This document shows, one piece after another, positions 3,123 to 19,183 of a DNA stretch of 32,000 nt (the first letter of the stretch is position 1; the number at the start of each line of letters is the position of its first letter). The stretch is from an uncultured Candidatus Saccharibacteria bacterium. GTDB taxonomy: Bacteria; Patescibacteriota; UBA1384; XYA2-FULL-43-10; 1-14-0-10-43-13. Position numbers and translations under genes: made by a program. Where the stretch lies: contig CAZIYE010000001.1 in assembly GCA_964543385.1 (NCBI GenBank), positions 180,001 through 212,000 on the forward strand, given 5' to 3'. Under the pieces are notes generated by a model. The model did not search any database, was not told the origin of the DNA, and saw only the letters and a program-made list of their open reading frames with translations.

Positions 3123-6071
3123 CTATCTATTTATACCTATTACGATCTTGGCACCATCTATATTATACTCTGCCTTGCCTTCAAAATTATTTTCTTCGCC
3201 ATCGTCATGCCAATTTTTGCTATAAGATATGCTGTTAGCCAGAACTTCCTTGGCTACAATTTTCAACTCAATAGCTTTTATCAAATTCTCAGAACTAGTC
3301 TCATAATATACATTTATACGATCCGAGACATTGAAATTTGACTCCTTGCGCAATGATTGAATATTCCTAATAATCTCCCGAGACAAACCCTCTATCTTAA
3401 GATCTTCGGTGATATCGGTATCTAACTCAACAGTATTCACATCACCATCGGAATATCTAACATCTTTTACATTAACCTCTTCGGCAATAATTAATTCTAG
3501 CTCCTTATCCAATTTATCCCCGTGGTAGATCAGGGAATTTAATGGCTGGCGAACTTTTATCTTCGCCTGAGCTCGAGATGACAAACCCATTTCAACTGTC
3601 TTGCGAACCTGTTGCATCTTGATATTCAAACCATCGTCAATCATTTCCAAATTTTCTAATGGATAATTCTCCAGATGCACAGAATTTTTGTTTGTTAAGT
3701 TTCTATAGATCTCATCAGCGATAAATGGTGTAAATGGTGCCAAAAGCTTTGATAATTCAACCAGCACCGTCCAGAGAGTCGCATAGGCGTTATCTTTGTC
3801 TCCATCATTCTCTGATTTCCAGAATCTTTTTCTGGATCGTCTAATATACCAATTTGAGAGATTATCAACAAAAGGCGCAATAAGTCTGGCTGACTTTGTC
3901 AAATCATAGTCTTCCATGTTTTTGTTTATTTCAACAATCAGCTTATTCAACTCAGAGATAATCCATTTGTCCAACAGATTAATCGAACTGTTTTCTGTTG
4001 TCTGTTGTCTGTTGTCTTGAGCCGGTATCCACTGATCGATATTCGCATATAAGACAAAGAATGAATAAGAATTCCAAAGCATCCTAAACATACCGCGTGA
4101 TAATTCTGCCAAATCCTTCTCCGAAAAGTTGAGATTCTCTGCTTGTAAGACGGGAGAATTAAGAATGTATAATCTGACCACATCAGCACCATATTTATCA
4201 AACATTAGCATTGGATCAGGATAATTTTGAAGCTTCTTGGACATCTTTTTACCATCCTCTGCCAAGATAATGCCGGAAACAACTACATTCTTATAAGCAT
4301 TTTTTTGCTTTATTGCCGTTGCCAAAATATGAAGATAGTAAAACCATGCTCTTGTCTGGTCCTGCGCTTCACCAATAAAATCAGCTGGAAAAGTTTCGTC
4401 AAATTTATCAACGTTTTCAAAAGGATAATGAAGTTGAGCATACGGCATCGAGCCAGAATCAAACCAAGTATCTAATACATCTGGAATTCGTTTCATCATG
4501 CCCTTACACTTAGCACAAGGAAAATCTATTTTGTCTACAACATCTTTATGCAAATCGTTAACCTTCTTTCCGCTTGCTTTCTCCAGTTCTTCTACTGATC
4601 CGAAAACCACCATCTCTCCGCAATCATCACATTTCCAGATTGGGATAACAGAAGCCCAAAACCGCTGTCTGGAGATCGACCAGTCTCTAGCACCTTCTAA
4701 CCACTTGCCGAATCTACCATCCTTAATATGCTTTGGCGACCAGTTTATCTCCTTGGCAAGCTTTAAAGCATCATCTTTGATTTCAGTTACCGAAACAAAC
4801 CACGAAGAGGTGGCATAATTCAAAAGCGGCGTATCACATCTCCAACAATGTGGATATGAATGCTCATATTTTTCCTTCGAAAAAAGCAGCCCTCGATGTG
4901 CTAAATCTTTGATAATTTCGATATCGGTTTTCTGTGTGTCATTTATATCTTTGACGTGCATGCCAGCAAAATTGCCAGCTTCTTCATTAATAATTCCGTC
5001 CATACCAACATGCTGAAGGAATGGAAGGTTATTTTTCTTACCGAGCTCCATATCATCTTCACCAAATGCTGGCGCAATATGAACTACCCCCGTTCCGTCC
5101 TCTGTCGTAACAAAATCACCAGCATAGATTTTCCAGCCATTCTCCCTATTTGGTAATTTGGAATCATCAGCATAATAACCAAAAAGTGGTTTATATGATT
5201 TGCCGATTAACTGACTAGATTTAAACTCTTCAACAATCTCATAATTTCTGTCTTTCATGACATCGGCTAGGCGCTCCTTTGCAAGGATATAATTTTCCGT
5301 AACTCCTGACTCATCATTCTTAACTAGAACCTTTACATAATTAATGTCTTTTCCAACCGCCAAGGCGACATTTCCAATCAACGTCCAAGGAGTTGTTGTC
5401 CATGCCAGCACAAATGTCCCTGGCTCATCCACTAGCTCAAATTTTGCAATTGCCGATAAATCTTTAACCAATTTATAGCCTTCGGAGACTTCAGACTGAG
5501 ATAAAGTCGTCTCGCATCTTGGACAGATATGCATTGAACGATAACTTTCATAGATAAGTCCCCTGTCCCAAAGCTCTTTAAAAACCCACCAGACAGATTC
5601 CATATAGGACAGATCCATCGTCTTGTAGGCATTTTCCATATCAGCCCAACGCCCCATTCGACGAATTACTGTCTCCCAGATTGAGGCATATTCCATAACC
5701 TTTGATCTGCAAATAGCGTTGAATTTATCCACACCCAAGTCCAAGATTTCTTTCTTGTGCGTGTATCCAAGTTCTTTTTCGACAATATTTTCGATTGGCA
5801 AACCATGACAATCCCAGCCCCAGCGTCTCGGAACTTTATATCCCTTCATAGTCCAATATCTTGGTACTACATCTTTAGTAATACTCTGCAGAATATGACC
5901 ATAGTGCGGCGTGCCAGTGGCAAATGGAGGACCATCATAGAAGCTGTAAAGCTTTGCATCTTTTCGATTTTCAATAGATTTTTCAAAAGTCTTATTTTCA
6001 TCCCAAAAATCAAGAATTTCTTCTTCAATTTTTGGTAAATTCATCGCTGATTCAACTTCTTTAAATGACAT
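3123..6071 (-). CDS. ileS: Isoleucyl-tRNA synthetase (type 2 / eukaryote-like signature)
   Basis: 982 aa. HIGH motif (PPFATGTPHYGHIL), KMSKK motif followed by LQNYPDP, an editing-domain-sized insertion (TTTPWTLIGN), and WISRQR. SD GGAG lies 5 nt upstream of the ATG. Confidence 0.95.
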   Translation of the reverse strand: MSFKEVESAMNLPKIEEEILDFWDENKTFEKSIENRKDAKLYSFYDGPPFATGTPHYGHILQSITKDVVPRYWTMKGYKVPRRWGWDCHGLPIENIVEKELGYTHKKEILDLGVDKFNAICRSKVMEYASIWETVIRRMGRWADMENAYKTMDLSYMESVWWVFKELWDRGLIYESYRSMHICPRCETTLSQSEVSEGYKLVKDLSAIAKFELVDEPGTFVLAWTTTPWTLIGNVALAVGKDINYVKVLVKNDESGVTENYILAKERLADVMKDRNYEIVEEFKSSQLIGKSYKPLFGYYADDSKLPNRENGWKIYAGDFVTTEDGTGVVHIAPAFGEDDMELGKKNNLPFLQHVGMDGIINEEAGNFAGMHVKDINDTQKTDIEIIKDLAHRGLLFSKEKYEHSYPHCWRCDTPLLNYATSSWFVSVTEIKDDALKLAKEINWSPKHIKDGRFGKWLEGARDWSISRQRFWASVIPIWKCDDCGEMVVFGSVEELEKASGKKVNDLHKDVVDKIDFPCAKCKGMMKRIPDVLDTWFDSGSMPYAQLHYPFENVDKFDETFPADFIGEAQDQTRAWFYYLHILATAIKQKNAYKNVVVSGIILAEDGKKMSKKLQNYPDPMLMFDKYGADVVRLYILNSPVLQAENLNFSEKDLAELSRGMFRMLWNSYSFFVLYANIDQWIPAQDNRQQTTENSSINLLDKWIISELNKLIVEINKNMEDYDLTKSARLIAPFVDNLSNWYIRRSRKRFWKSENDGDKDNAYATLWTVLVELSKLLAPFTPFIADEIYRNLTNKNSVHLENYPLENLEMIDDGLNIKMQQVRKTVEMGLSSRAQAKIKVRQPLNSLIYHGDKLDKELELIIAEEVNVKDVRYSDGDVNTVELDTDITEDLKIEGLSREIIRNIQSLRKESNFNVSDRINVYYETSSENLIKAIELKIVAKEVLANSISYSKNWHDDGEENNFEGKAEYNIDGAKIVIGINR

Positions 6072-6280
6072 TTTGTCTCCTTTAACAAAAAAATGGCCCG
6101 ATAATATATTAATTATATATTAAGGCCGCTTATTATATAAGTGAGGTACCAGCCAAAAACATTCTTGATTTTAGTGATTACGGACACCGACCGAGGAGTT
6201 CTAGTTTTCCAATAATAGGAATTTCTTCTCCTAGCGTAACCAAAAGTGGTTTCGTCTGTTGATATCAGACTATGACGCTT
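6072..6280 (-). ncRNA. Probable T-box riboswitch leader of ileS (Ile specifier AUC), with terminator and T-box motif
   Basis: Minus-strand reading. GGCUGGUACC (plus 6145-6154) matches the T-box core GGGUGGUACC, with a UGGU bulge able to pair with an ACCA 3' end. A long hairpin GGCC..GGCC (6095-6127) plus U7 (6087-6093) sits just before the SD. Hairpin GUCUG-AUAUCAA-CAGAC (6254-6270) displays AUC followed by A. CCGUAA resembles the F-box. A TATAAT -10 lies at 6283-6288. No covariance model was run. Confidence 0.5.
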
Positions 6281-6404
6281 ATATTATAAATTGAGCTTAC
6301 AATAATTATTTAGATATTTCAATATAAAATAACTACTTACTTTTATCAGCGTTATAATTAAGATCTATAGTTTGATAACCAGAATCATATCCTAATCGAT
6401 CCAA

Positions 6405-6449
6405 GATCCCTGCTTTCCTGCCTGCCGGCAGGCATGGCGCAGGTATGAC
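6405..6449. repeat. GC-rich compound palindrome (core TGCCTGCCGGCAGGCA, outer CCTGC/GCAGG arms)
   Basis: Perfect 16-nt palindrome at 6419-6434, nested in an imperfect hairpin at 6409-6443. Strongly GC-rich against AT-rich flanks. Intergenic, downstream of pilin copy A. Confidence 0.7.
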
Positions 6450-6518
6450 AGCGGATAGTTATAATATTATTTTCTTTCCATGAAGATCTATATTGCCACA
6501 TTTCTGAATATCGCATAC

Positions 6519-7031
6519 TTAAAATCCATTTCCAACTCTAAATGTCATTTTATATGTACTTGTAGGACCATATGTAGTATTTACGCCGCTATCACTGGCA
6601 TCATCCCAATCATCACTATTATTATCTACAACATTCTCTAGCTTTGCATATATAGATGTAAGGGTTGTACTAGCCCTAAACATATATCTATATAATCCAG
6701 TGTTTATTGGATCTTTCATTTCACGTGGCAAGGTGCCGTCATTAACAAGACCAGTACAAAGAGATTCATAAGGAGCATAATTGTAATTGAAAAATCCCCC
6801 AGTGCCAGTGCCAGCAGAGCCATAGCCAAATATCACATAAGTCCCTGTTCTTTCATGATTTCTGACTTGGAGCGCTTTAAATATTTGTCTCAAATCACTC
6901 TTACGGACAGTGTCTCTGGCTTTAGATGTTTGATTTGTATAACCTACAACACTCACAGCAGCTAATATGCCGATGATAACTATTACTATTATAAGTTCTA
7001 CAAGTGTAAAACCCTTTGATTTCTTAAACAT
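6519..7031 (-). CDS. Type IV pilin-like protein, tandem copy A (170 aa from the corrected start)
   Basis: Class III signal MFKKSKG/FTLVELIIVIVIIGILAAV (Gly -1, Phe +1, Glu +5). SD GGAGGGG lies 3 nt upstream of the ATG at 7029-7031. The track's longer ORF (to 7073) starts at a TTG inside the duplicated DUF167 tail. Confidence 0.85.
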   Translation of the reverse strand: MFKKSKGFTLVELIIVIVIIGILAAVSVVGYTNQTSKARDTVRKSDLRQIFKALQVRNHERTGTYVIFGYGSAGTGTGGFFNYNYAPYESLCTGLVNDGTLPREMKDPINTGLYRYMFRASTTLTSIYAKLENVVDNNSDDWDDASDSGVNTTYGPTSTYKMTFRVGNGF

Positions 7032-7247
7032 TATCCCCTCCGATATGTGTACAGAAATATTATACCTCAACAACCTTGTTTCTGGAAGTAAGCCCCTTGA
7101 TTACCCTTATAGAACTCTTTGGTATCTTATAATAATTTGACAACGCATCTATTACTTCTAAACTGGCTTCACCTCGAAAAGGTTTTCCCTTAACCCAAAC
7201 CTTCAAACTACCATCATTATTCTTATCGACTTTAGCTATTTTTGCAT
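6598..7247. repeat. Tandem direct repeat, copy 1 (650 bp, identical to 7410-8059 at offset 812)
   Basis: Compared block by block by eye with no mismatch found. Covers most of the pilin gene, its RBS region and a 3' fragment of the DUF167 gene. Confidence 0.9.
7060..7247 (-). pseudogene. Truncated 3' fragment of the DUF167 gene, carried along by the pilin duplication
   Basis: Identical to 7872-8059 (the last 188 nt of the intact DUF167 gene, including its stop). The first 28 nt and the start codon are missing; identity ends at 7247. Confidence 0.8.
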
Positions 7248-7330
7248 ATCTAGCCCTACTTTCTCTTGGAGAAAGTATAGATCAACTCTGCTCTATAATT
7301 GCATATCTACAAGAATCATAAATTCTACAG

Positions 7331-7843
7331 TTAGAATCCATTCCCAATTCTAAAATTCATTTTGAAGCTGCTTGCAGGACCGTAACCTGTATATGCACCA
7401 CTAGAGCTAGCATCATCCCAATCATCACTATTATTATCTACAACATTCTCTAGCTTTGCATATATAGATGTAAGGGTTGTACTAGCCCTAAACATATATC
7501 TATATAATCCAGTGTTTATTGGATCTTTCATTTCACGTGGCAAGGTGCCGTCATTAACAAGACCAGTACAAAGAGATTCATAAGGAGCATAATTGTAATT
7601 GAAAAATCCCCCAGTGCCAGTGCCAGCAGAGCCATAGCCAAATATCACATAAGTCCCTGTTCTTTCATGATTTCTGACTTGGAGCGCTTTAAATATTTGT
7701 CTCAAATCACTCTTACGGACAGTGTCTCTGGCTTTAGATGTTTGATTTGTATAACCTACAACACTCACAGCAGCTAATATGCCGATGATAACTATTACTA
7801 TTATAAGTTCTACAAGTGTAAAACCCTTTGATTTCTTAAACAT
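7331..7843 (-). CDS. Type IV pilin-like protein, tandem copy B (170 aa from the corrected start)
   Basis: Same N-terminal 146 aa as copy A. The last 24 aa differ (SSGAYTGYGPASSFKMNFRIGNGF versus DSGVNTTYGPTSTYKMTFRVGNGF). SD GGAGGGG precedes the ATG at 7841-7843. Confidence 0.85.
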   Translation of the reverse strand: MFKKSKGFTLVELIIVIVIIGILAAVSVVGYTNQTSKARDTVRKSDLRQIFKALQVRNHERTGTYVIFGYGSAGTGTGGFFNYNYAPYESLCTGLVNDGTLPREMKDPINTGLYRYMFRASTTLTSIYAKLENVVDNNSDDWDDASSSGAYTGYGPASSFKMNFRIGNGF

Positions 7844-8059
7844 TATCCCCTCCGATATGTGTACAGAAATATTATACCTCAACAACCTTGTTTCTGGAAG
7901 TAAGCCCCTTGATTACCCTTATAGAACTCTTTGGTATCTTATAATAATTTGACAACGCATCTATTACTTCTAAACTGGCTTCACCTCGAAAAGGTTTTCC
8001 CTTAACCCAAACCTTCAAACTACCATCATTATTCTTATCGACTTTAGCTATTTTTGCAT
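7410..8059. repeat. Tandem direct repeat, copy 2 (650 bp, identical to 6598-7247)
   Basis: See copy 1. Confidence 0.9.
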
Positions 8060-8087
8060 TTGGGATTACTCGAATATCTATTTTCAT
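7872..8087 (-). CDS. DUF167 / YggU-like small protein
   Basis: 71 aa. The pattern IRVIPNAK...KV...G.LKVWVKGKPFRGEAS.EVI..LS.....KSSIRVIKGLTSRNKVVEV fits the DUF167 family. Confidence 0.7.
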   Translation of the reverse strand: MKIDIRVIPNAKIAKVDKNNDGSLKVWVKGKPFRGEASLEVIDALSNYYKIPKSSIRVIKGLTSRNKVVEV

Positions 8088-8088
8088 A

Positions 8089-8544
8089 TTAGACTGCCTG
8101 TTTTATTTTTGCCTGTTCATCCAGCGCTTCATTCACGAGCCTATCAGCATCGGTATTTTCTTCTCTAGGAATATGGACAAACGAAATATTTAAGTGCATT
8201 TGATCAATCATCAACTTGATTTCGGCTACAAAAGCTTTGAGACGATCTTCTTTGATTTTCCAATTACCATTAATCTGTTCCACGACCAGCTTTGAGTCTA
8301 GTCGACAAATTACCTTTTTATCGGCGATATTATTTTCCTCGAACCATTTACTCTTGACCAATATTTCAAGCGCTTTAACTATTGCTTTGTATTCAGCCTC
8401 ATTGTTCGTCCCTTCACCGACATACTGTTTATATTCATGAATTATCCCGCCATTAGCATCGCTAAAAACAACACCTATGCCTGCAGGCCCGGGATTTCCT
8501 CGTGAACCACCATCCGTATTTATATACAATTTATCCATTTGCAA
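8089..8544 (-). CDS. rnhA: Ribonuclease HI (type 1 RNase H)
   Basis: 151 aa. DEDD-type catalytic pattern: INTDGGSRGNPGPAGIG, NNEAEYKA, LDSKLVV and EENTDADRLVN. Confidence 0.85.
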   Translation of the reverse strand: MQMDKLYINTDGGSRGNPGPAGIGVVFSDANGGIIHEYKQYVGEGTNNEAEYKAIVKALEILVKSKWFEENNIADKKVICRLDSKLVVEQINGNWKIKEDRLKAFVAEIKLMIDQMHLNISFVHIPREENTDADRLVNEALDEQAKIKQAV

Positions 8545-12221: not shown

Positions 12222-13001
12222 TTATAAAGAAATAAATAAATTTGAATACCACTTAATGACCTCAAATCCATAGATCATAGCAAAAAGTATACCCATGATC
12301 AGGAAAGGGGCAAATGGTAAAGCCATTTTTAAAGATTTACGATCAATTGATTTATTTCGCAGTAGAATCATAGCTATTCCCACTATAGATCCAAAGACAA
12401 AAGCGCTAAAAAGCGCCACTAGAACATTTGGATATCCAACAAGGAGCCCCATAATCACCCCTATTTTGATATCTCCTGCGCCCATCCACCTCTCTTTTGA
12501 AAAATATACTAAAGCGCCCAGAAATCCACCGGCAAGCACAGCGCCAATAATTGCGCTAAAAAAAGTAAATTCTCCAAAATACCATCCCAATACCAAGGAT
12601 AAAATCAAAGCAATCCAGACAAATATTTCAGGAACAGTCTGTGTCTCTATATCATAGACGAAGACAACAATCAGCAAGGAAAAAACAATAAGATAAAAAG
12701 CCAAGCCCCAAGTCAAACCAAATACCAAAAATAGAACAAGGAAAAGAAGACCTGTCCCTATTTCAACCAGTGGATACTGCCAAGATATCTTCCCACCACA
12801 ATATCTACATCTTGCGCGAAGTAGAACAAAAGACAGAAATGGAATTAAATCATACCATGCCAAAATTTTCTTACACTTCGGACAGTGAGAACGATCGTAT
12901 AAGACAGTAGAAAGCTCATCTATACGTAAAATGATTACATTTAAAAAACTGCCTATTGCTAGGCCGAGAAGAAAAAAAATAATTAAATAAACTGACACCA
13001 T
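12222..13001 (-). CDS. pilD: Prepilin peptidase (A24 family, PilD/GspO type)
   Basis: 259 aa and polytopic. Has the CPKC...CRYC pair typical of the N-terminal region, and the two catalytic Asp contexts VFVYDIETQTVP and GAGDIKIGVIMG. Confidence 0.92.
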   Translation of the reverse strand: MVSVYLIIFFLLGLAIGSFLNVIILRIDELSTVLYDRSHCPKCKKILAWYDLIPFLSFVLLRARCRYCGGKISWQYPLVEIGTGLLFLVLFLVFGLTWGLAFYLIVFSLLIVVFVYDIETQTVPEIFVWIALILSLVLGWYFGEFTFFSAIIGAVLAGGFLGALVYFSKERWMGAGDIKIGVIMGLLVGYPNVLVALFSAFVFGSIVGIAMILLRNKSIDRKSLKMALPFAPFLIMGILFAMIYGFEVIKWYSNLFISL

Positions 13002-13047: not shown

Positions 13048-13089
13048 GTTTCTTATAGCTCTGCAGATTCTGCAGAGCGTATAAGAAAC
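13048..13089 (-). terminator. 19-20 bp stem-loop starting at the stop codon of the 152-aa pilin gene (possible attenuating terminator or mRNA stabiliser)
   Basis: Arms 13048-13066 and 13070-13089, loop ATT, one bulged G. No clear U-tract follows on the minus strand, so this is not a textbook intrinsic terminator. Confidence 0.45.
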
Positions 13090-13547
13090 TAGTCGTTCTG
13101 AACCCAATAGTTATAACCAGATGGCAAAGTCCCTGCCGTTGGATTTCCAGTTTTGATCTCTGAATCCTTCGTATTCTCCAAAGCTGCAAAAAGCGCAAAG
13201 TCTGACCCAGTGTCAGTAGTAATATACTGATACTGATTAGTGCCTTTTGGATCAGTGGGTATTGTCTTGATATAAGGGTCAGTACCAGTATTGAGCCATG
13301 TAAGATCAGTCACTGGAACTGCAACTGCCTCGATAGCATACTTTTCTGGATCCTTTACAGTATCTATCTTGTCAGAATAGGAAGTAATAATTGCAGTCTT
13401 TAGCTGCTGAAGATCATTCTTCCTCTGCGCATCTCGTGCCTTTGCTCTGGCGCCTTGTAAACCCACCATCACCATAGCAGCCAAGATACCAATAACAGCG
13501 ATGACTACCAATAATTCTATCAGAGTAAAGGCTTTTCTTTTTAACAT
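13089..13547 (-). CDS. Type IV pilin / PulG-like pseudopilin (152 aa); best major-pilin candidate, with Ala at -1
   Basis: [52 protein letters not shown] is a classic T4a/GspG-like N-terminal helix. It is the shortest pilin and is followed by a strong hairpin. Confidence 0.85.
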
Positions 13548-13567: not shown

Positions 13568-14068
13568 TTAGTAACCAGTTCCATACTTAGTACAACCAGT
13601 TAATCTACACAATACCGCAGGATCAGTTGTGGCCGGTGTTCCAACAGTAGCTGGATTTGCAGCAGAAATGAGAATTGTGCTTGGAGCTGTAATCGCATTT
13701 GTAGTAGAAGTTGGAAAAGTTGGCGTACCAGGAGTTGGTTTAGCATCAGCTGCTAAATAATTATAGTATCTCCAATTGCCACCAAAACTTGTCATCACCG
13801 GCCAATTACCAGTTACAGCATCAGTTGTAGTACATATCTGTGCACCTGGAAGAGCTGCTGCATCCGCACGAGTAACCACACTTTCTCCATTTGCTACACA
13901 AACATTTGCACCCTTAATTGCTTCGGACAAACTTACAAAAGCTGAATTGTTTCTAGCTTTACCTGTCTGGCTTGTATAGCCCACGACAGTTACAGCAGCC
14001 AAGATACCGATAATAACGATAACGATGATCAACTCTACGAGCGTAAAACCTTTTGATTTCTTTAACAT
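13568..14068 (-). CDS. Type IV pilin-like protein (166 aa from the corrected start)
   Basis: MLKKSKG/FTLVELIIVIVIIGILAAV is almost identical at protein level to pilins A/B but differs at many synonymous sites. The GGAGGG SD overlaps the track's upstream ATG, favouring the ATG at 14066-14068. Confidence 0.85.
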   Translation of the reverse strand: MLKKSKGFTLVELIIVIVIIGILAAVTVVGYTSQTGKARNNSAFVSLSEAIKGANVCVANGESVVTRADAAALPGAQICTTTDAVTGNWPVMTSFGGNWRYYNYLAADAKPTPGTPTFPTSTTNAITAPSTILISAANPATVGTPATTDPAVLCRLTGCTKYGTGY

Positions 14069-14163
14069 TTTTCCCTCCATTTTGATATTATTTTATATTT
14101 TCAAATATAATAGCTTAATTTGGCTTCGATCGACCGAACGAAGACAAATTGGCTATTTTCGGT

Positions 14164-15369
14164 TTATCCACCTGCCGTTTGATTTATCTGATATATTGGC
14201 AGATAAATTGCAAATACCATAAAGGCAACTGCCAGACCCACTATAACAAGGACTGCTGGCTCGACCAATGAACTTATGGTTTTTGTAATATTTGTAGTGC
14301 TCTCTTCATAATATTCAGAAACTTTACCCAAAACCTTGTCTATCTCGCCAGTTTCTTCACCTACTGCTACCATCTGACCGATGAGTGGAGGGAAAAAGGG
14401 ATCTTTTAATAATTCTACTGAAAGAGGAACGCCTTTTTCTACCTGAGTTGATATATAAGACAAACTATCCTCGTATATCACGTTATCGATCACACTGCCA
14501 CCAATTCTCAATGCATCGAGTAGCGGTACGCCAGCGCCTATAAGCATGGACATGATCCTAGTGAAACGATACATATACATACCCTCATAAATATCCTTTA
14601 ATCCCGGAAGAGTAATCTGTAAATTATGGAATACCCTAGAGCCAGCATCTGTTTTTATCCAGTTCATGATAAAGAATACCCCCCCACCAAAGACAAGTAG
14701 CACCAACCACCACCAAGCTTGCAAAAAGTCAGACGCACCCAACAATATCTTGGTGATAATTGGTAGATCAGATCCAGCGGAATCAAACATTGATTTCAAT
14801 TTAGGCACCACAAATGCAAGCATCGCTATACCAGCAATTATAAGAACGCCGAAAATAAAGATAGGATAGTATAGGGCACCTTTTACCTTAGAGATAAATC
14901 CGCTATCTTTCTCAAGCTGATTAGAAAGCTCTAATAATACAACATCTAATTTGCCAGTACTCTCGCCGGAATTCACTACAGAAACAAATACTCGATCAAA
15001 CGCCTCTGGATGTTTAGCGAGTGCAGAAGAAAAACTGTAGCCCTCTTCTAGATCTTTATATATACTCAGGAATATTTCTTTCTGATGAGCAGTCTTGGAT
15101 TGACCTGCTAAGAGGCTTATTGCCTTTGTTAGGGCTAAACCAGACGAAAGCATTGTGGCTAATTGGCGCGTAAAAACTGCCTTGTCTCTAACAGAAACTT
15201 TGGGAACCAAAAAACTAGCAAAAGCCATCTGCCCTTCAGCAATGATTTCGGTAGGTACCAATGTATGCTGAACCAAAACCTTCTCAGCTTCTGTCTGGCT
15301 GACAGCTCTGACTGTACCGGTAACCAGTTGACCTTTATTATTTTTTGCTTTGTATAGAAACCTTGGCAT
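14164..15369 (-). CDS. pilC: Type IV pilus platform protein PilC (GspF family)
   Basis: 401 aa. Two GspF-type repeats (FTRQLATMLSSGLAL...; FTRIMSMLIGAGVPLLDAL...) and 3 TM segments. SD GAGGGG. Confidence 0.92.
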   Translation of the reverse strand: MPRFLYKAKNNKGQLVTGTVRAVSQTEAEKVLVQHTLVPTEIIAEGQMAFASFLVPKVSVRDKAVFTRQLATMLSSGLALTKAISLLAGQSKTAHQKEIFLSIYKDLEEGYSFSSALAKHPEAFDRVFVSVVNSGESTGKLDVVLLELSNQLEKDSGFISKVKGALYYPIFIFGVLIIAGIAMLAFVVPKLKSMFDSAGSDLPIITKILLGASDFLQAWWWLVLLVFGGGVFFIMNWIKTDAGSRVFHNLQITLPGLKDIYEGMYMYRFTRIMSMLIGAGVPLLDALRIGGSVIDNVIYEDSLSYISTQVEKGVPLSVELLKDPFFPPLIGQMVAVGEETGEIDKVLGKVSEYYEESTTNITKTISSLVEPAVLVIVGLAVAFMVFAIYLPIYQINQTAGG

Positions 15370-15506: not shown

Positions 15507-16574
15507 TTAATATACCATCATCTTAAAACTCTTAGGATCCAGAGAGTAATTAAGGGCGTCTTCCAGGGTAATATCCCCCCTAGAGACATATTCTGCCAAA
15601 ACTTTATCGAGACTAATCATACCTTCAGCAGCAGATGTTTGAATAATATTTGGTATCTGATAATTCTTTCCTTCTCTAATAAGACTCTTTACTGCTGAAT
15701 TAGCTACCATTATTTCAGCTGCTAATACCCTTCCACCACCAATTTTAGGAATAAGGCGTTGTGAAACAACTCCAAGCAAGCAAGATGCAAACTGACTTTG
15801 AATTTGCTGCTGCAAGTGTGGCGGGAAAACATTAACTATACGATCAGCAGTCTGCGCAGTCGAATTCGTATGCAGAGTGGTAAAAACGAGATGCCCTGTC
15901 TCAGCCAAGGTAAGCGCAGCTTCAATTGTTTCGAGGTCTCGCATCTCACCTACCAAAACAACATCCGGATCTTCTCTTAAAGCCGATCTCAAAGCCCTAG
16001 AAAAAGAATTAGTATCTGATCCTACCTCTCTTTGAGATATTACGCTCTTCTTGTGATCAAAAACATACTCTATAGGATCCTCGATAGTGACTATGTGCTT
16101 GCTTTTTTCGCTATTTATCTTATCAATCAAGGCCGCTAATGTAGACGATTTACCAGAACCAGTAGGTCCGGTGATAATAACAAAACCTTGGCTTGGCTCA
16201 GTGAATTTTTCAAGGATCGGTGGTAATCCTAGGTCTTTGAAACTTCTTATATCTTTAGGAATAAGACGCAATGATGCAGATAATGTGCCCTTTTGATAAT
16301 AAACATTTGCTCTAAAACGCATATTTTGATAGCCAAAAGAGAAATCTGCCTCTCTTTTTTGCTTTAGGGTCAACAAAAGTTCAGCGGGGGTAAAGATAGC
16401 AATTAATTCCTTTGCTTTTTGTTCTGTGATTATTGCAGCATCAGGTATTGGCAACAATTTGCCATCAATTCTAACCATTGCCGGTATACCCACATTTATA
16501 TGAATATCAGATGCATTCTTTGACACAGCAAAGTTAAGATAAGAAGCAACTTCCGAATTCTTTTTTTCTGTCAT
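15507..16574 (-). CDS. pilT: Retraction ATPase PilT
   Basis: 355 aa. Walker A GPTGSGKSST, Asp box/Walker B DPDVVLVGEMRD and His box GHLVFTTLHTNS. The length and the absence of an N-terminal GspE-N domain fit PilT. SD GGAGGGG. Confidence 0.9.
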   Translation of the reverse strand: MTEKKNSEVASYLNFAVSKNASDIHINVGIPAMVRIDGKLLPIPDAAIITEQKAKELIAIFTPAELLLTLKQKREADFSFGYQNMRFRANVYYQKGTLSASLRLIPKDIRSFKDLGLPPILEKFTEPSQGFVIITGPTGSGKSSTLAALIDKINSEKSKHIVTIEDPIEYVFDHKKSVISQREVGSDTNSFSRALRSALREDPDVVLVGEMRDLETIEAALTLAETGHLVFTTLHTNSTAQTADRIVNVFPPHLQQQIQSQFASCLLGVVSQRLIPKIGGGRVLAAEIMVANSAVKSLIREGKNYQIPNIIQTSAAEGMISLDKVLAEYVSRGDITLEDALNYSLDPKSFKMMVY

Positions 16575-16666: not shown

Positions 16667-19183
16667 TTAATTGTTGATAACGGCTTGGAAAATCTCATCA
16701 ACAGTAGTCTGGCCTGCAAAAGCTTTAATAATTCCATCTTGTTTCATAGTTATCATCCCCTCTTTAATAGCAGTTTCTTTTATTTCATTTGCTGGCCTTT
16801 TGGCAATCGCCAATTCCTCGATAGCCGGCGTAATTGTCATCACCTCATAAATACCAACTCGACCTTTGAATCCTTGATTGCATTCAGAGCAACCTTTGCC
16901 ATGATAAAGTTTTAATTCTGCTGGAATGCGTTCTTTGTCTTTAATATTATTAGCCGGTATTTTTGCCATCTCTGCCATCAGTTCATCCATAAGTTTTTGC
17001 GGTACCTTTATTTCCTCACGACATTTGGGACAAATTCGTCTCACCAATCTCTGTGCTATTACTAGATTTATAGCAGAAGTAATAAGAAATGGTTCAACAC
17101 CCATGTTAATGAGTCTAGGCAATGCACCAGCGGTATCGTTTGTATGCAGCGTAGACAGAACTAAATGACCAGTAAGTGCGGCATGTGTCGACATAGCAGC
17201 GGTTTCCGCATCACGTATTTCACCGACCATGATAACATTTGGATCCTGACGAAGGATACTACGTAAACCAGAAGCAAAGGTAAAGCCAATCTCTGGTTTG
17301 ATCTGACATTGATTTATGCCAGCAATTTCATACTCCACGGGGTCCTCAAGAGTAACAATATTGACGCCAGGCACACTAATTCTGCTCAAAACCGCGTACA
17401 ATGTAGTAGATTTACCAGAACCAGTAGGACCTGTGGAAAGTATTATCCCGTAAGGTTTCTCAATCGCTGCGTTGGTCTCTTCAAACGCGCTACCTTGCAT
17501 TCCCAAATCTTCCAAAGATAATATACCTTTACTTTTGTCCAAAACTCTCATAACAACTTTTTCGCCATGTACAGTAGGCAATGTAGATACACGAACATCG
17601 ACTTGATGGTTTTTAAACTCAACATCGAAACGACCATCTTGAGGAATACGACTTTCATCAATTTTTAGCTTTGACAATATTTTAATACGACTCACAAAAG
17701 GAGGATGAAATTTCAACGGAGCCTTAACGGCATCTTTTAAGATACCGTCTACTCTGCAGCGAATTCTTAGGGATTTATTTTCTGGTTCTACGTGAATGTC
17801 TGAGGCTTTTTTCATCAAAGCAAAGTTTATAACTGCCGCAACGATCTTGGGAATGGAGCCCTCTTTGACTATTTCGTCTAACATTTTCTCATCAAGAATA
17901 TCTTCTTTTATAAGCGAACCGAGATTGTTTTCGCTAGATTCCTGGTCAACGGGCTCTGGCTCGACATCTTCTATTGCAGTAGGTGTTTGTGGTCCGTTTT
18001 CTAATGCTGCCCCAGCTACGCTTGTAGCTTCATTTGACTTATCCTGTTTTACCTTTAAATCATTCGCTACCACTTCTTGTTGCTCTGACTTATTATCTAT
18101 AGCGTTCTGTTCTTCTTTATCCAGTTGCACTTCGTCCGTATCGTGTTTATCATTCTCAGGTAATTCTTCAGAGGAGGCAATCTCATCCATTGTAAATTCT
18201 GGACCACTTTCAGAGACTAAACTATCAAGTAAACCTCTGATAGCACTTTTGGAATCAGATTTCTCTTTGTTGATGTTTTGGCTATTTACCGCCGGGATAT
18301 TTGCGCCTGCAACACCATCCATATTTTTTATCGCCTGATCATCACCCTGATCACTTTTTGTATCAATAGTAACATTATTGTTAATAATATTTTTTTTAGG
18401 GGAGCTATTTCCACCGATCCTTGCAAGAACATATTCAATATCATCACGGGAGGTAGCAAACTTTTCGATGTTTACCCCATTTTCCTTTTTGATGAAATCC
18501 AAAATCTTCATGGTAATAGGTGAGTCTGGTTGTTCGCACGCGATAAGATAATGACCACGCTTATTTTGATCAAAAACAACAAGTCGATATTTTGCAACAA
18601 AATCTTTCGGAAATTTTTTTAGAAATCCCTCTTGAATCGGCTGATTTCTAAGATAAACGATAGGCAAACTACCTTTTTTCATCAAAAGAGAATTCTTGTC
18701 ATTCTGCCTGTATTGCTTGATTACTTCTATAAAATCAGTTTCGCCGGTTACAAAAAGTTCAACCTCTAATTTTCTTTTTTCAAAAAGATCCCTAAGGCCA
18801 CCCTGAAAACCAGTCAGAATGTCAGCTGGTTTTGAGATCGCAATCCGAATCATCCCCTCATCTAAGCCAAAAGCTATAATTCCAAATCTCCTAGCGATCT
18901 TTTCCGTTATTATGACCTTTAGCTCGTCAGGAACACGTACGTTTCTGAGCTCAACATATGGTAACTTCAAAATTATACTATAAGCCTTATTGATTGTATC
19001 TCTAGTAACAATACGATTTTTACACAAAAAGTCCTCAATCTGGCGGTTGGTTTTCAACTGCTTTTTTAGACGAGCAGCGTCATCTTGGTCGATCAAATCT
19101 TGCAAGACAAAAACATCCAAAATAGACTGATCAAGGAAAGTACTATTAGAAATGTTGTAATAGTTTTGGTTAAGATTAGCCAT
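16667..19183 (-). CDS. pilB: Assembly ATPase PilB (GspE family), with two N-terminal GspE-N-like domains and a long acidic low-complexity insert
   Basis: 838 aa. Walker A GPTGSGKSTT, DPNVIMVGEIRD, GHLVLSTLHTND and a tetracysteine site CPKC...CSEC. Residues about 258-425 are D/E/S/N/Q-rich with no predicted fold. Confidence 0.92.
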   Translation of the reverse strand: MANLNQNYYNISNSTFLDQSILDVFVLQDLIDQDDAARLKKQLKTNRQIEDFLCKNRIVTRDTINKAYSIILKLPYVELRNVRVPDELKVIITEKIARRFGIIAFGLDEGMIRIAISKPADILTGFQGGLRDLFEKRKLEVELFVTGETDFIEVIKQYRQNDKNSLLMKKGSLPIVYLRNQPIQEGFLKKFPKDFVAKYRLVVFDQNKRGHYLIACEQPDSPITMKILDFIKKENGVNIEKFATSRDDIEYVLARIGGNSSPKKNIINNNVTIDTKSDQGDDQAIKNMDGVAGANIPAVNSQNINKEKSDSKSAIRGLLDSLVSESGPEFTMDEIASSEELPENDKHDTDEVQLDKEEQNAIDNKSEQQEVVANDLKVKQDKSNEATSVAGAALENGPQTPTAIEDVEPEPVDQESSENNLGSLIKEDILDEKMLDEIVKEGSIPKIVAAVINFALMKKASDIHVEPENKSLRIRCRVDGILKDAVKAPLKFHPPFVSRIKILSKLKIDESRIPQDGRFDVEFKNHQVDVRVSTLPTVHGEKVVMRVLDKSKGILSLEDLGMQGSAFEETNAAIEKPYGIILSTGPTGSGKSTTLYAVLSRISVPGVNIVTLEDPVEYEIAGINQCQIKPEIGFTFASGLRSILRQDPNVIMVGEIRDAETAAMSTHAALTGHLVLSTLHTNDTAGALPRLINMGVEPFLITSAINLVIAQRLVRRICPKCREEIKVPQKLMDELMAEMAKIPANNIKDKERIPAELKLYHGKGCSECNQGFKGRVGIYEVMTITPAIEELAIAKRPANEIKETAIKEGMITMKQDGIIKAFAGQTTVDEIFQAVINN

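What the first reader, a model, noticed from the sequence alone, without database searches (positions are those of the whole stretch)
6519..8059. Tandem pilin duplication: 650 bp identical next to a sharply diverged C-terminal cassette
Segments 6598-7247 and 7410-8059 (offset 812 bp) showed no mismatch when compared by eye. The adjoining 79 bp, which encode the last 24 aa plus stop (6519-6597 versus 7331-7409), differ at many positions. The protein tails are DSGVNTTYGPTSTYKMTFRVGNGF versus SSGAYTGYGPASSFKMNFRIGNGF. The 3' flanks are only faintly alignable. The repeat unit carries the last 188 nt of the DUF167 gene, so both pilin copies have the same GGAGGGG RBS and the same TATAAT-like -10 (7059-7064 and 7871-7876). 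An abrupt switch from identity to divergence is not what neutral decay of a duplication produces. It suggests gene conversion homogenising the 5' part while the exposed C-terminal tail is kept different, or recent recombination swapping a C-terminal cassette, as in pilin variation systems. A third paralogue (13568-14068) shares the N-terminal protein sequence but differs at synonymous sites, showing what ordinary divergence looks like in this genome.
Basis: partly seen in the sequence, partly recalled or inferred. Interest (0 to 1): 0.7.

Follow-up and report, generated by a model that had tools for sequence, protein, structure and literature searches.

The report
Recent tandem pilin duplication, swapped tail
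A tiny-genome (Patescibacteria) bacterium carries two back-to-back copies of a type IV pilin gene that are letter-for-letter identical except for the last 24 codons, which come from two old allele lineages joined by recombination; this is real but an ordinary kind of pilin-locus variation, not a new mechanism.

Summary
Window 6598-7247 equals 7410-8059 exactly (650 bp, offset 812). The next 79 bp differ at 24 positions. The repeat unit carries the last 188 nt of DUF167 plus the RBS and start of a 170-aa type IV prepilin.

The tails differ mostly at synonymous sites (dS about 2, dN about 0.23). They are therefore old, purified alleles, not decay after duplication, and the sharp edge is a recombination breakpoint inside the conserved WDDA motif.

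Independent short-read contigs of the same strain (Logan, k=31) stop exactly 30 nt inside both repeat edges. One of these edges lies inside DUF167, which allelic tails of a single-copy gene cannot explain. This argues against an assembly artefact.

A related strain (L001) has identical flanks, one pilin with tail B, and a different, about 67% identical, central block. Sister species carry 0, 2 or at least 3 pilins at the same DUF167|IleRS site, and their tandem paralogues are not homogenised.

Best reading: a very recent tandem duplication or insertion at a hypervariable pilin island, combined with segment exchange between diverged alleles. No silent cassettes, G4 motif, invertase or DGR were found. 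It is a new member of a known kind, of modest interest.

The parts
7872..8087 (-). Complete DUF167/YggU-family gene (71 aa). The repeat begins inside it, at 8059.
   Evidence: Pfam PF02594, E=5e-17; sequence
7410..8059 (-). Repeat copy 1 (R1), 650 bp: last 188 nt of DUF167, RBS, and pilin codons 1-144 plus 2 nt of codon 145
   Evidence: Exact identity to 6598-7247
7331..7843 (-). Pilin A: 170-aa type IV prepilin (leader MFKKSKG, then FTLVELI...), carrying tail A
   Evidence: PF07963 N_methyl, E=3.9e-9. AF2 model has a long N-terminal helix plus beta strands, pLDDT 80. The profile hits solved type IV pilins.
7331..7409 (-). Tail A cassette: part of codon 145, codons 146-170 and the stop codon (SSGAYTGYGPASSFKMNFRIGNGF)
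   Evidence: 24 of 79 nt differ from tail B. NG86 dN 0.23, dS 2.08. Its first 17 nt are identical to the sister-species allele L003p1.
7248..7330 (-). Unique 83-bp junction between the stop of pilin A and the truncated DUF167 fragment. This is the novel join of the duplication.
   Evidence: No other copy in the window or in the related loci examined (L001-L007). Not significantly alignable to flank B. Two small hairpins and no terminator.
6598..7247 (-). Repeat copy 2 (R2), 650 bp, identical to R1
7060..7247 (-). 5'-truncated DUF167 fragment (last 188 nt including the stop), a by-product of the duplication. It carries the TATAAT-like hexamer at 7059-7064.
6519..7031 (-). Pilin B: 170-aa prepilin, identical to pilin A for residues 1-146, carrying tail B
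   Evidence: Identical to database protein P0001, from an NCBI contig of 671,273 bp.
6519..6597 (-). Tail B cassette (DSGVNTTYGPTSTYKMTFRVGNGF plus stop). The same tail and 3' flank are found in the single-copy strain L001.
6072..6518 (-). 3' spacer of the pilin island, up to the IleRS start. Its promoter-proximal 215 nt or so are conserved in sister species L003.
   Evidence: 100% identical to L001 and 83-94% identical to L003. No remnant of a second-paralogue pilin.
13568..14080 (-). Third pilin paralogue, inside the main type IV pilus gene cluster. It serves as a control for ordinary paralogue divergence.

Best explanation
This is a genuine and evolutionarily very recent 812-bp tandem duplication or insertion. 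It lies in a hypervariable 'pilin island' between DUF167 and the isoleucyl-tRNA synthetase gene (IleRS) of a Patescibacteria (CPR) bacterium.

It produces two complete, co-oriented type IV pilin genes, each with its own RBS. They are identical for 146 residues. Their last 24 codons and 3' flanks come from two anciently diverged allele lineages.

Shown: the boundary between identity and divergence lies in the conserved WDDA-coding stretch.

Inferred: this boundary is a homologous-recombination crossover between diverged pilin alleles. The other end (7248|7247) is an illegitimate join inside DUF167. One simple route is a duplication in a tail-A strain, followed by replacement of the downstream copy's tail and flank by tail-B DNA. 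Another is a one-step homology-facilitated illegitimate integration of tail-A DNA into a tail-B strain.

Inferred: both genes are probably co-transcribed with the upstream operon, since no terminator lies between them. They would yield two pilin isoforms that differ in a flexible C-terminal loop (residues 147-160) and the last beta strand. This would broaden or change the pilus surface, which could affect host attachment or phage evasion.

The 650-bp direct repeats make the array unstable, so single-copy derivatives are expected in the population.
For: Exact 650-bp identity with a sharp edge.

The tails are old alleles under purifying selection. dS is 2.08 and dN is 0.23 over 26 codons, with 13 transitions and 11 transversions. 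This divergence is as deep as that of housekeeping genes between sister species, which are 72-77% identical at the nucleotide level with saturated dS.

Independent read sets support the repeat structure. Logan contig L040 (SRR12261227) matches window 15583-8030 at 100% and ends exactly 30 nt inside the repeat edge at 8059. L041 (SRR12261227) and L042 (SRR12261226) start at 6627, exactly 30 nt before the first tail-B-specific base. Logan graphs use k=31 with all 31-mers distinct (PMC12424806). The graph therefore branches at both repeat ends, and the branch inside DUF167 requires the junction.

L001 is a single-copy locus with flanks 100% identical to the window, tail B and flank B. Its central block is 67% identical with indels. 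This shows both copy-number polymorphism and sub-genic mosaicism.

Sister species carry 0 pilins (L043, L045), 2 distinct pilins (L003) or at least 3 (L006) at the same site.

Tandem paralogues in L003 and L006 are 77-78% identical at the nucleotide level in the N-terminal region, so conversion is not habitual here.

Identity reaches the join itself and covers a dead DUF167 fragment.

The full type IV pilus machinery is encoded nearby: PilB, PilT, PilC, PilD, PilN/O and minor pilins.

In the AF2 model, residues 143-157 form a low-confidence loop and residues 164-167 form the last strand.
Against: - I could not retrieve any read or contig that contains the tail A plus junction segment from an independent assembly. 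The junction's existence elsewhere is inferred from graph break points only.
- The source genome's reads and coverage are not available.
- L001 could in principle be a collapsed path through a tandem.
- No single-copy tail-A strain was found, so the origin of tail A and its flank is unknown.
- Only 26 codons underlie the dS estimate.
- Expression of either copy is untested, and the promoter scan found nothing convincing in the duplicated unit.
- Pilin A/B may not be the main structural pilin. The third paralogue has a higher Gly/Ala/Ser/Thr (GAST) content, 43.5% against 34%.
Confidence: 0.65

Rival explanations
1. An old tandem duplication kept homogeneous over its 5' 650 bp by repeated intragenomic gene conversion (concerted evolution), while selection keeps the two C-terminal tails different. 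L001 would then be a deletion derivative.
For: The tail and 3' flank are deeply diverged, as expected if the duplication is old. Recombination between the 650-bp repeats would readily give a single-copy derivative with tail B, as seen in L001. Tandem pilins are the common state at this locus in relatives.
Against: Identity extends without a mismatch to the very edge of homology at the join (8059/7247) and through a non-functional DUF167 fragment. Conversion tracts need flanking homology and should leave a diverged margin there. The relatives' tandem paralogues are a different pair (p1/p2), have no DUF167 fragment between them, and show no homogenisation (77% nt identity). The central block of L001 differs from that of both window copies, so L001 is not a simple deletion product.
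Confidence: 0.2
2. An assembly artefact. Two strain variants of a single-copy pilin (tail A and tail B) were threaded one after the other into one contig, or a tandem from one strain was chimerically joined to the flank of another.
For: Closely related strains do exist (L001). Short-read assemblies of this strain break at the locus. The complete pilin A and B proteins are on record only from the one NCBI contig.
Against: A pure allele mixture cannot create a graph branch at 8059 inside DUF167, yet L040 ends exactly k-1 nt beyond it. The 83-bp junction is unique sequence that connects tail A to the middle of DUF167. The only path that uses all graph nodes from upstream to downstream is U-R-tailA-J-R-tailB-D. 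The source is a 671-kb contig, the size of a whole Patescibacteria genome.
Confidence: 0.1
3. A programmed pilin variation system. The tails are exchangeable cassettes, fed by silent partial copies elsewhere in the genome or shuffled by a dedicated recombinase, as in Neisseria pilE/pilS or the Moraxella Q/I inversion.
For: Variable segments are bracketed by conserved motifs (KARD, LPREMKDP, WDDA, R[VI]GNGF), and the breakpoints fall in these motifs. Two segments (central block and tail) vary independently between otherwise identical strains.
Against: Both copies are full-length genes with an RBS. No tail-like partial cassette occurs in the 32-kb window. There is no G4 motif. No recombinase, invertase or reverse transcriptase is present. 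The repeats are direct, not inverted. The mismatches are not adenine-specific, so this is not a DGR.
Confidence: 0.05

Closest known systems
Tandem major-pilin paralogues of Streptococcus sanguinis (pilE1/pilE2; pilA1/pilA2/pilA3)
   Same: Adjacent, co-oriented, complete pilin genes in a type IV pilus locus. Two of the paralogues are more than 90% identical, with identical N-terminal helices (PilA1 and PilA3 identical for aa 1-53, 94% overall). Copy number differs between strains (2 or 3). The arrangement is attributed to gene duplication, and the small differences have functional effects (PMC11121087).
   Different: Here the identity is at the nucleotide level over 650 bp and includes a fragment of the upstream gene. 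All divergence is confined to the last 24 codons and has saturated synonymous sites. The organism is an uncultured Patescibacteria bacterium, and there are no functional data.
Neisseria pilE/pilS antigenic variation
   Same: A pilin with a conserved N-terminus and variable C-terminal segments bracketed by conserved motifs. Recombination joins fall in the conserved stretches.
   Different: Neisseria uses promoterless, 5'-truncated silent cassettes, a G4-forming element and non-reciprocal RecA-dependent transfer (my own knowledge). Here both copies are complete and translatable, and the window has no G4 motif or silent cassette.
Pseudomonas aeruginosa pilA allele island (pilin groups I-V between pilB and tRNA-Thr)
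   Same: Conserved genes bracket a site whose pilin content differs sharply between close relatives. Old allele lineages are maintained and exchanged by recombination (my own knowledge). The DUF167|IleRS site here holds 0, 1, 2 or at least 3 pilins.
   Different: P. aeruginosa carries one pilin plus accessory genes per island, not near-identical tandem copies with a chimeric tail.
Generic bacterial tandem duplication/amplification (direct repeats with a novel join point)
   Same: An 812-bp unit repeated head to tail. The join lies between a 3' flank and the interior of the upstream gene and leaves a truncated gene fragment. The copy number is polymorphic in the population, and loss by recombination between the repeats is expected.
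   Different: The two units are not identical at their 3' ends. One end carries a deeply diverged allele, so a second recombination event, or two different parental alleles, is needed.
Moraxella bovis/lacunata Q/I pilin inversion (Piv)
   Same: Two alternative C-terminal pilin coding segments share one common N-terminal part.
   Different: The Moraxella system is a site-specific inversion with an invertase and a single expressed gene (my own knowledge). Here the repeats are direct, there are two full genes, and no recombinase is present.

Membership tests
Type IV pilin (class III signal peptide, PF07963) | Short basic leader ending in Gly, followed by Phe+1 and Glu+5 in a hydrophobic N-terminal segment | tested here: met
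   MFKKSKG|FTLVELIIVIVIIGILAAV. PF07963 E=3.9e-9, 36 bits against a cut-off of 21.2.
Type IV pilin (class III signal peptide, PF07963) | 'Lollipop' fold: an N-terminal alpha helix of about 50 residues packed on a C-terminal beta sheet | tested here: met
   AF2 model, pLDDT 80.3: helix 10-62; strands 78-80, 116-120, 125-129 and 164-167. The profile matches solved PilE, PAK pilin, Thermus PilA and GspG at E=1e-9 to 1e-17. Foldseek against the PDB gave no significant hit.
Type IV pilin (class III signal peptide, PF07963) | Prepilin peptidase and assembly machinery encoded in the genome | tested here: met
   PilD (12222-13001), PilC (14164-15369), PilT-like ATPase (15507-16574), PilB with MshEN domain (16667-19183), PilO and PilN.
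Type IV pilin (class III signal peptide, PF07963) | C-terminal disulfide-bonded D-region (typical of Gram-negative T4a major pilins) | tested here: not met
   The protein has a single Cys (C92). The tail contains no Cys.
Type IV pilin (class III signal peptide, PF07963) | Being the major (filament-forming) subunit | not testable with these tools
   It is small and has no accessory domain, which fits a major pilin. However, its Gly/Ala/Ser/Thr (GAST) content is 34% against 43.5% for paralogue 13568-14080, and there are no expression data.
Neisseria-type pilE/pilS antigenic variation | Silent donor cassettes that lack a promoter, start codon and N-terminal coding part | tested here: not met
   Both copies have an ATG, an RBS and all 170 codons. 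No further tail-like sequence occurs in the 32-kb window. The rest of the genome was not available.
Neisseria-type pilE/pilS antigenic variation | G-quadruplex-forming sequence upstream of the expression locus | tested here: not met
   A regex scan for (G3+N1-7)x3 G3+ on both strands of the window found none.
Neisseria-type pilE/pilS antigenic variation | Variable mini-cassettes flanked by conserved segments where the exchanges resolve | tested here: met
   The breakpoints fall in the KARD, LPREMKDP and WDDA coding stretches, which are conserved across alleles and species.
Invertible pilin segment (Moraxella Piv type) | Inverted repeats flanking alternative C-terminal segments, plus a site-specific recombinase | tested here: not met
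   The copies are direct repeats. No recombinase domain occurs in any large ORF of the window.
Diversity-generating retroelement target | Template/variable repeat pair that differs only at template adenines, with a reverse transcriptase nearby | tested here: not met
   The 24 mismatches involve all four bases (A in copy B at 9 positions, A in copy A at 3 positions). The RVT_3 hit at 8089-8544 is an RNase H domain protein, not a reverse transcriptase.
Simple tandem segmental duplication | Head-to-tail repeat with a single novel join and a truncated gene at the join | tested here: met
   The unit is 812 bp. The join at 7248|7247 links the pilin 3' flank to codon 10 of DUF167.
Simple tandem segmental duplication | The two units are identical, or uniformly diverged, over their whole length | tested here: not met
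   0 of 650 mismatches, then 24 of 79, then 83 bp that cannot be aligned. An additional recombination event is required.

The most novel reading that the evidence does not exclude
The tandem array could be a working variation device of an episymbiotic Patescibacteria bacterium. The identical 650-bp repeats, together with DNA taken up through the pilus itself, would let the population repeatedly expand, contract and re-assort tail and central-loop cassettes, perhaps fed by further silent fragments elsewhere in the 671-kb genome. That would switch the pilus surface, and with it host or phage specificity. Co-expression of the A and B isoforms would give mixed filaments.
Probability: 0.1. Interest if true: 0.6.

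Novelty: new member of a known kind. Interest (0 to 1): 0.3.

Why it matters
Type IV pili are nearly universal in Patescibacteria, and in cultivated Saccharibacteria they mediate host binding (PMC11623550). A pilin site that holds 0, 1, 2 or at least 3 genes in close relatives, and that shows sub-genic allele mosaicism between otherwise identical strains, marks the pilus surface as a fast-changing interface in this lineage. The cause is probably selection from hosts or phages. The value of the finding is as a clean, well-delimited natural example, with exact breakpoints, an exact join and an independent single-copy comparator. It also shows that exact tandem repeats in metagenome-derived genomes can be cross-checked from the break points of k-mer graphs. 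It does not reveal a new mechanism.

Tried and rejected
- DGR mutagenesis: rejected, because the mismatches are not adenine-specific and no reverse transcriptase is present.
- G4 motif and silent cassettes: none in the window.
- Invertase or recombinase: none.
- Rfam on the whole window at gathering threshold, and on 6000-7400 at E<=1: no hits. No tRNAs either.
- Exact-protein look-ups of pilin A, pilin B, the 184-aa TTG form, P0001, the 35-aa tail A fragment and the 61-aa DUF167 fragment all returned nothing. The junction segment therefore could not be retrieved independently.
- Remnant of the sister-species second pilin (p2) in the 3' spacer: none.
- Homology of the 83-bp junction to flank B, or to the DUF167-pilin unit: not significant.
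- Intrinsic terminator between the copies: none found. The promoter scan was at background level.
- Paper searches for the sample and run accessions found nothing useful.
Full report
**1. Observation**

All genes in this part of the window are on the minus strand. Read 5' to 3' on that strand, the order is:
- TrpRS (9583-8594)
- an RNase H-domain protein (8544-8089)
- DUF167 (8087-7872)
- pilin A (7843-7331)
- an 83-bp unique junction (7330-7248)
- the last 188 nt of DUF167 again (7247-7060)
- pilin B (7031-6519)
- a 447-bp spacer
- IleRS (6071-3123)

A base-by-base comparison at offset 812 gives one uninterrupted identical run, 6598-7247 = 7410-8059 (650 bp). It is followed by 24 mismatches in the 79 nt that encode the last 24 residues and the stop codon. 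Under uniform divergence the chance of such a run is about 3.5e-10.

In the third paralogue the N-terminal protein sequence is conserved, but 19 of the first 32 codons counted from GFTLVEL (G7 of pilin A) differ synonymously. The only correction concerns the 83-bp junction. It is not demonstrably homologous to the 3' flank of pilin B.

**2. What the genes are**

Both ORFs are 170-aa type IV prepilins.
- They have a class III leader (MFKKSKG|FTLVELI) and match PF07963.
- The AlphaFold2 model (pLDDT 80) has a helix at residues 10-62 packed on a small sheet. Residues 143-157 form a low-confidence loop and residues 164-167 form the terminal strand.
- A family profile matches solved type IV pilins and GspG.
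- The window also encodes PilD, PilC, PilT, PilB, PilN/O, four larger pilin-like proteins and two more small pilins.

TrpRS homologues with names are from 'Patescibacteria group' and 'Candidatus Berkelbacteria' (about 66% identity). The database copy of pilin B comes from an NCBI contig of 671,273 bp. The host is therefore a small-genome CPR bacterium.

**3. Nature of the divergent tail**

18 of the last 26 codons differ, 9 of them silently. Nei-Gojobori dN is 0.23 and dS is 2.08. Transitions and transversions are about equal, and all four bases are involved.

This is the signature of long separate evolution under purifying selection. It is not drift or positive selection after a recent duplication, and it is not DGR mutagenesis. 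The tails are as diverged at silent sites as housekeeping genes are between this organism and its sister species (72-77% nt identity, saturated dS).

The first 17 nt of tail A are identical to the allele of sister species L003. The edge between identity and divergence falls in the TGGGATGATGC (WDDA) stretch, which is conserved in all alleles. It is a recombination breakpoint.

**4. Is the tandem real?**

The exact pilin proteins are on record only for the NCBI genome. No independent assembly has resolved the array. Independent short-read contigs of the same strain do exist, however.
- L040 (Logan, SRR12261227, a 24.4-kb contig) is 100% identical to window 15583-8030. It ends exactly 30 nt inside the repeat, whose edge is at 8059.
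- L041 (same run) and L042 (SRR12261226) are 100% identical to the window from 6627 downwards. They begin exactly 30 nt before 6597, the first tail-B-specific base.

Logan contigs come from a k=31 de Bruijn graph in which every 31-mer occurs once (PMC12424806). Contigs that stop k-1 nt inside a segment therefore mark graph branches at that segment's edges.

A branch at the tail edge could come from two alleles of a single-copy gene. A branch at 8059, inside DUF167, cannot. It needs a second sequence that runs into ATGCAAAAATAGC..., which is what the junction does. With nodes U (upstream), R (repeat), tailA+J and tailB+D, the only walk from U to D that uses every node is U-R-(tailA+J)-R-(tailB+D). 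That is the structure in the window.

I could not retrieve the tailA+J node itself. This remains an inference and not a direct observation.

**5. Population and phylogenetic context**

L001 (JGI 3300045131, 1,970 bp) runs from the 3' end of TrpRS through RNase H, DUF167, one pilin and the spacer into IleRS. Apart from a central block it is essentially base-for-base identical to the window, with only a few silent differences just 3' of that block. It carries tail B and the 3' flank of pilin B. The central block (about residues 41-100, the alpha-beta loop region) is 67% identical with indels, at dS 1.3. Two segments of this pilin, the central loop and the tail, therefore exist as deeply diverged alleles in otherwise identical backgrounds. 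Copy number is 1 or 2.

More distant relatives keep the synteny TrpRS-RNase H-DUF167-[...]-IleRS, but the bracket varies:
- no pilin at all in L043 and L045, where the IleRS ATG lies 2 nt after the DUF167 stop
- two different pilins in L003 and L004
- at least three pilins in L006

In L003 and L006 the tandem paralogues are only 77-78% identical at the nucleotide level, even in the conserved N-terminal coding region. That is no more than between species. Habitual gene conversion is therefore not a property of this locus. The window spacer holds no remnant of the relatives' second paralogue.

**6. Mechanism**

Shown:
- a head-to-tail 812-bp repeat with one novel join (the pilin 3' flank joined to DUF167 codon 10)
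- perfect identity up to that join and across a dead gene fragment
- an old-allele tail and flank on one unit
- independent sub-genic mosaicism in a sister strain
- variable gene content at the site

Inferred: the array is recent, and it combines an illegitimate join with homologous exchange between diverged alleles. There are two simple routes.
- (a) A duplication in a tail-A strain. The tail and downstream flank of copy 2 are then replaced by a double crossover with tail-B DNA. The left crossover lies in WDDA and the right crossover anywhere downstream.
- (b) A one-step homology-facilitated illegitimate integration of a tail-A fragment. It is anchored by homology upstream and joined illegitimately at DUF167 codon 10.

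I cannot tell these apart. The rival of long-term concerted evolution is less likely, for three reasons:
- conversion should leave a diverged margin at the outer edge of homology, and there is none
- the DUF167 fragment is under no selection yet is perfect
- L001 is not a simple deletion product

Functionally, no terminator separates the genes. Both have the same RBS, so both are probably made. They differ at 9 residues, 7 of them in the predicted flexible loop 147-160 and 2 in the last strand. Whether these residues are exposed in the filament is plausible from general pilin architecture, but it was not tested here.

**7. Comparison with known systems**

The closest analogue is the set of tandem, near-identical major pilins of Streptococcus sanguinis. 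Their copy number varies between strains and they are attributed to duplication (PMC11121087).

The variable content of the site resembles the P. aeruginosa pilA allele island (my own knowledge).

The locus shares conserved-motif-bracketed variable segments with Neisseria pilE/pilS. It fails the defining features of that system, which are silent truncated cassettes and a G4 element. It also fails those of invertible pilin systems and of DGRs.

It is a simple tandem duplication in its join. It is not one in its 3' end.

**8. Verdict**

The feature is very probably real. It is a new example of a known kind of pilin-locus dynamics in a lineage where pili matter for host attachment (PMC11623550). 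Interest is modest, at 0.3.

Noticed in passing
window 6072-6290 (- strand); L003 4034-4267: The 215 nt or so upstream of IleRS are 83-94% identical between this organism and sister species L003. The neighbouring housekeeping genes are only 72-77% identical. The stretch contains a T-box-like GGCUGGUACC motif, and a hairpin followed by U7 just before the IleRS RBS. Rfam gave no hit even at E<=1. The leader is absent from L043, where IleRS directly follows DUF167.
   Followed up: partly
L043 7569-7800; L045 2299-2530; L001; L003 2946-3994; L006 3287-4621: The DUF167|IleRS interval is a variable pilin island. It holds 0, 1, 2 or at least 3 pilin genes in closely related lineages with otherwise conserved synteny.
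   Followed up: partly
L001 about 980-1160, versus window 7720-7540 and 6908-6728: In a strain with identical flanks, the central alpha-beta-loop block of the pilin is replaced by an allele that is 67% identical and has indels. Its left edge is sharp, in the conserved KARD stretch. On the right it grades into a stretch of a few silent differences from about LPREMKDP onwards. Parts of this block resemble the L003 allele more than the window allele does (for example DLTQIYKALQVRNV and DYD.AGPY).
   Followed up: partly
window 6419-6450: A GC-rich palindrome (GCCTGCCGGCAGGC) lies in the otherwise AT-rich spacer downstream of pilin B. No T-run follows it. Its function is unknown.
   Followed up: no
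L002, L004, L005, L006, L007 (contig ends): Contigs of sister species from several metagenomes all end inside or just after the second or third pilin gene. This suggests strain heterogeneity or repeats at pilin genes in those populations too. L002 shows a split second pilin (67-aa and 60-aa calls).
   Followed up: no
window 13568-14080 and 13089-13547: Two further small pilins sit directly downstream of pilC. The first has the highest Gly/Ala/Ser/Thr (GAST) content of all pilins here (43.5% against 34% for pilin A/B), so it may be the main structural pilin of this cluster.
   Followed up: partly
window 24393-27233 and 28474-31923: Two very large ORFs lie upstream of the pilus cluster. One (946 aa) has no Pfam match. 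The other (1149 aa) has Laminin_G_3 and Big_2 domains. They may be surface adhesins.
   Followed up: no
window 7242-7252, 7299-7309, 7454-7467: The motif TA(G/T)ATATGCAA occurs at the junction/repeat boundary, inside the 83-bp junction, and near the 3' end of the repeat within the pilin coding sequence. The 11-mer match has an expectation of about 0.9 by chance, so it is probably coincidence. It could also be microhomology used in the illegitimate join.
   Followed up: partly
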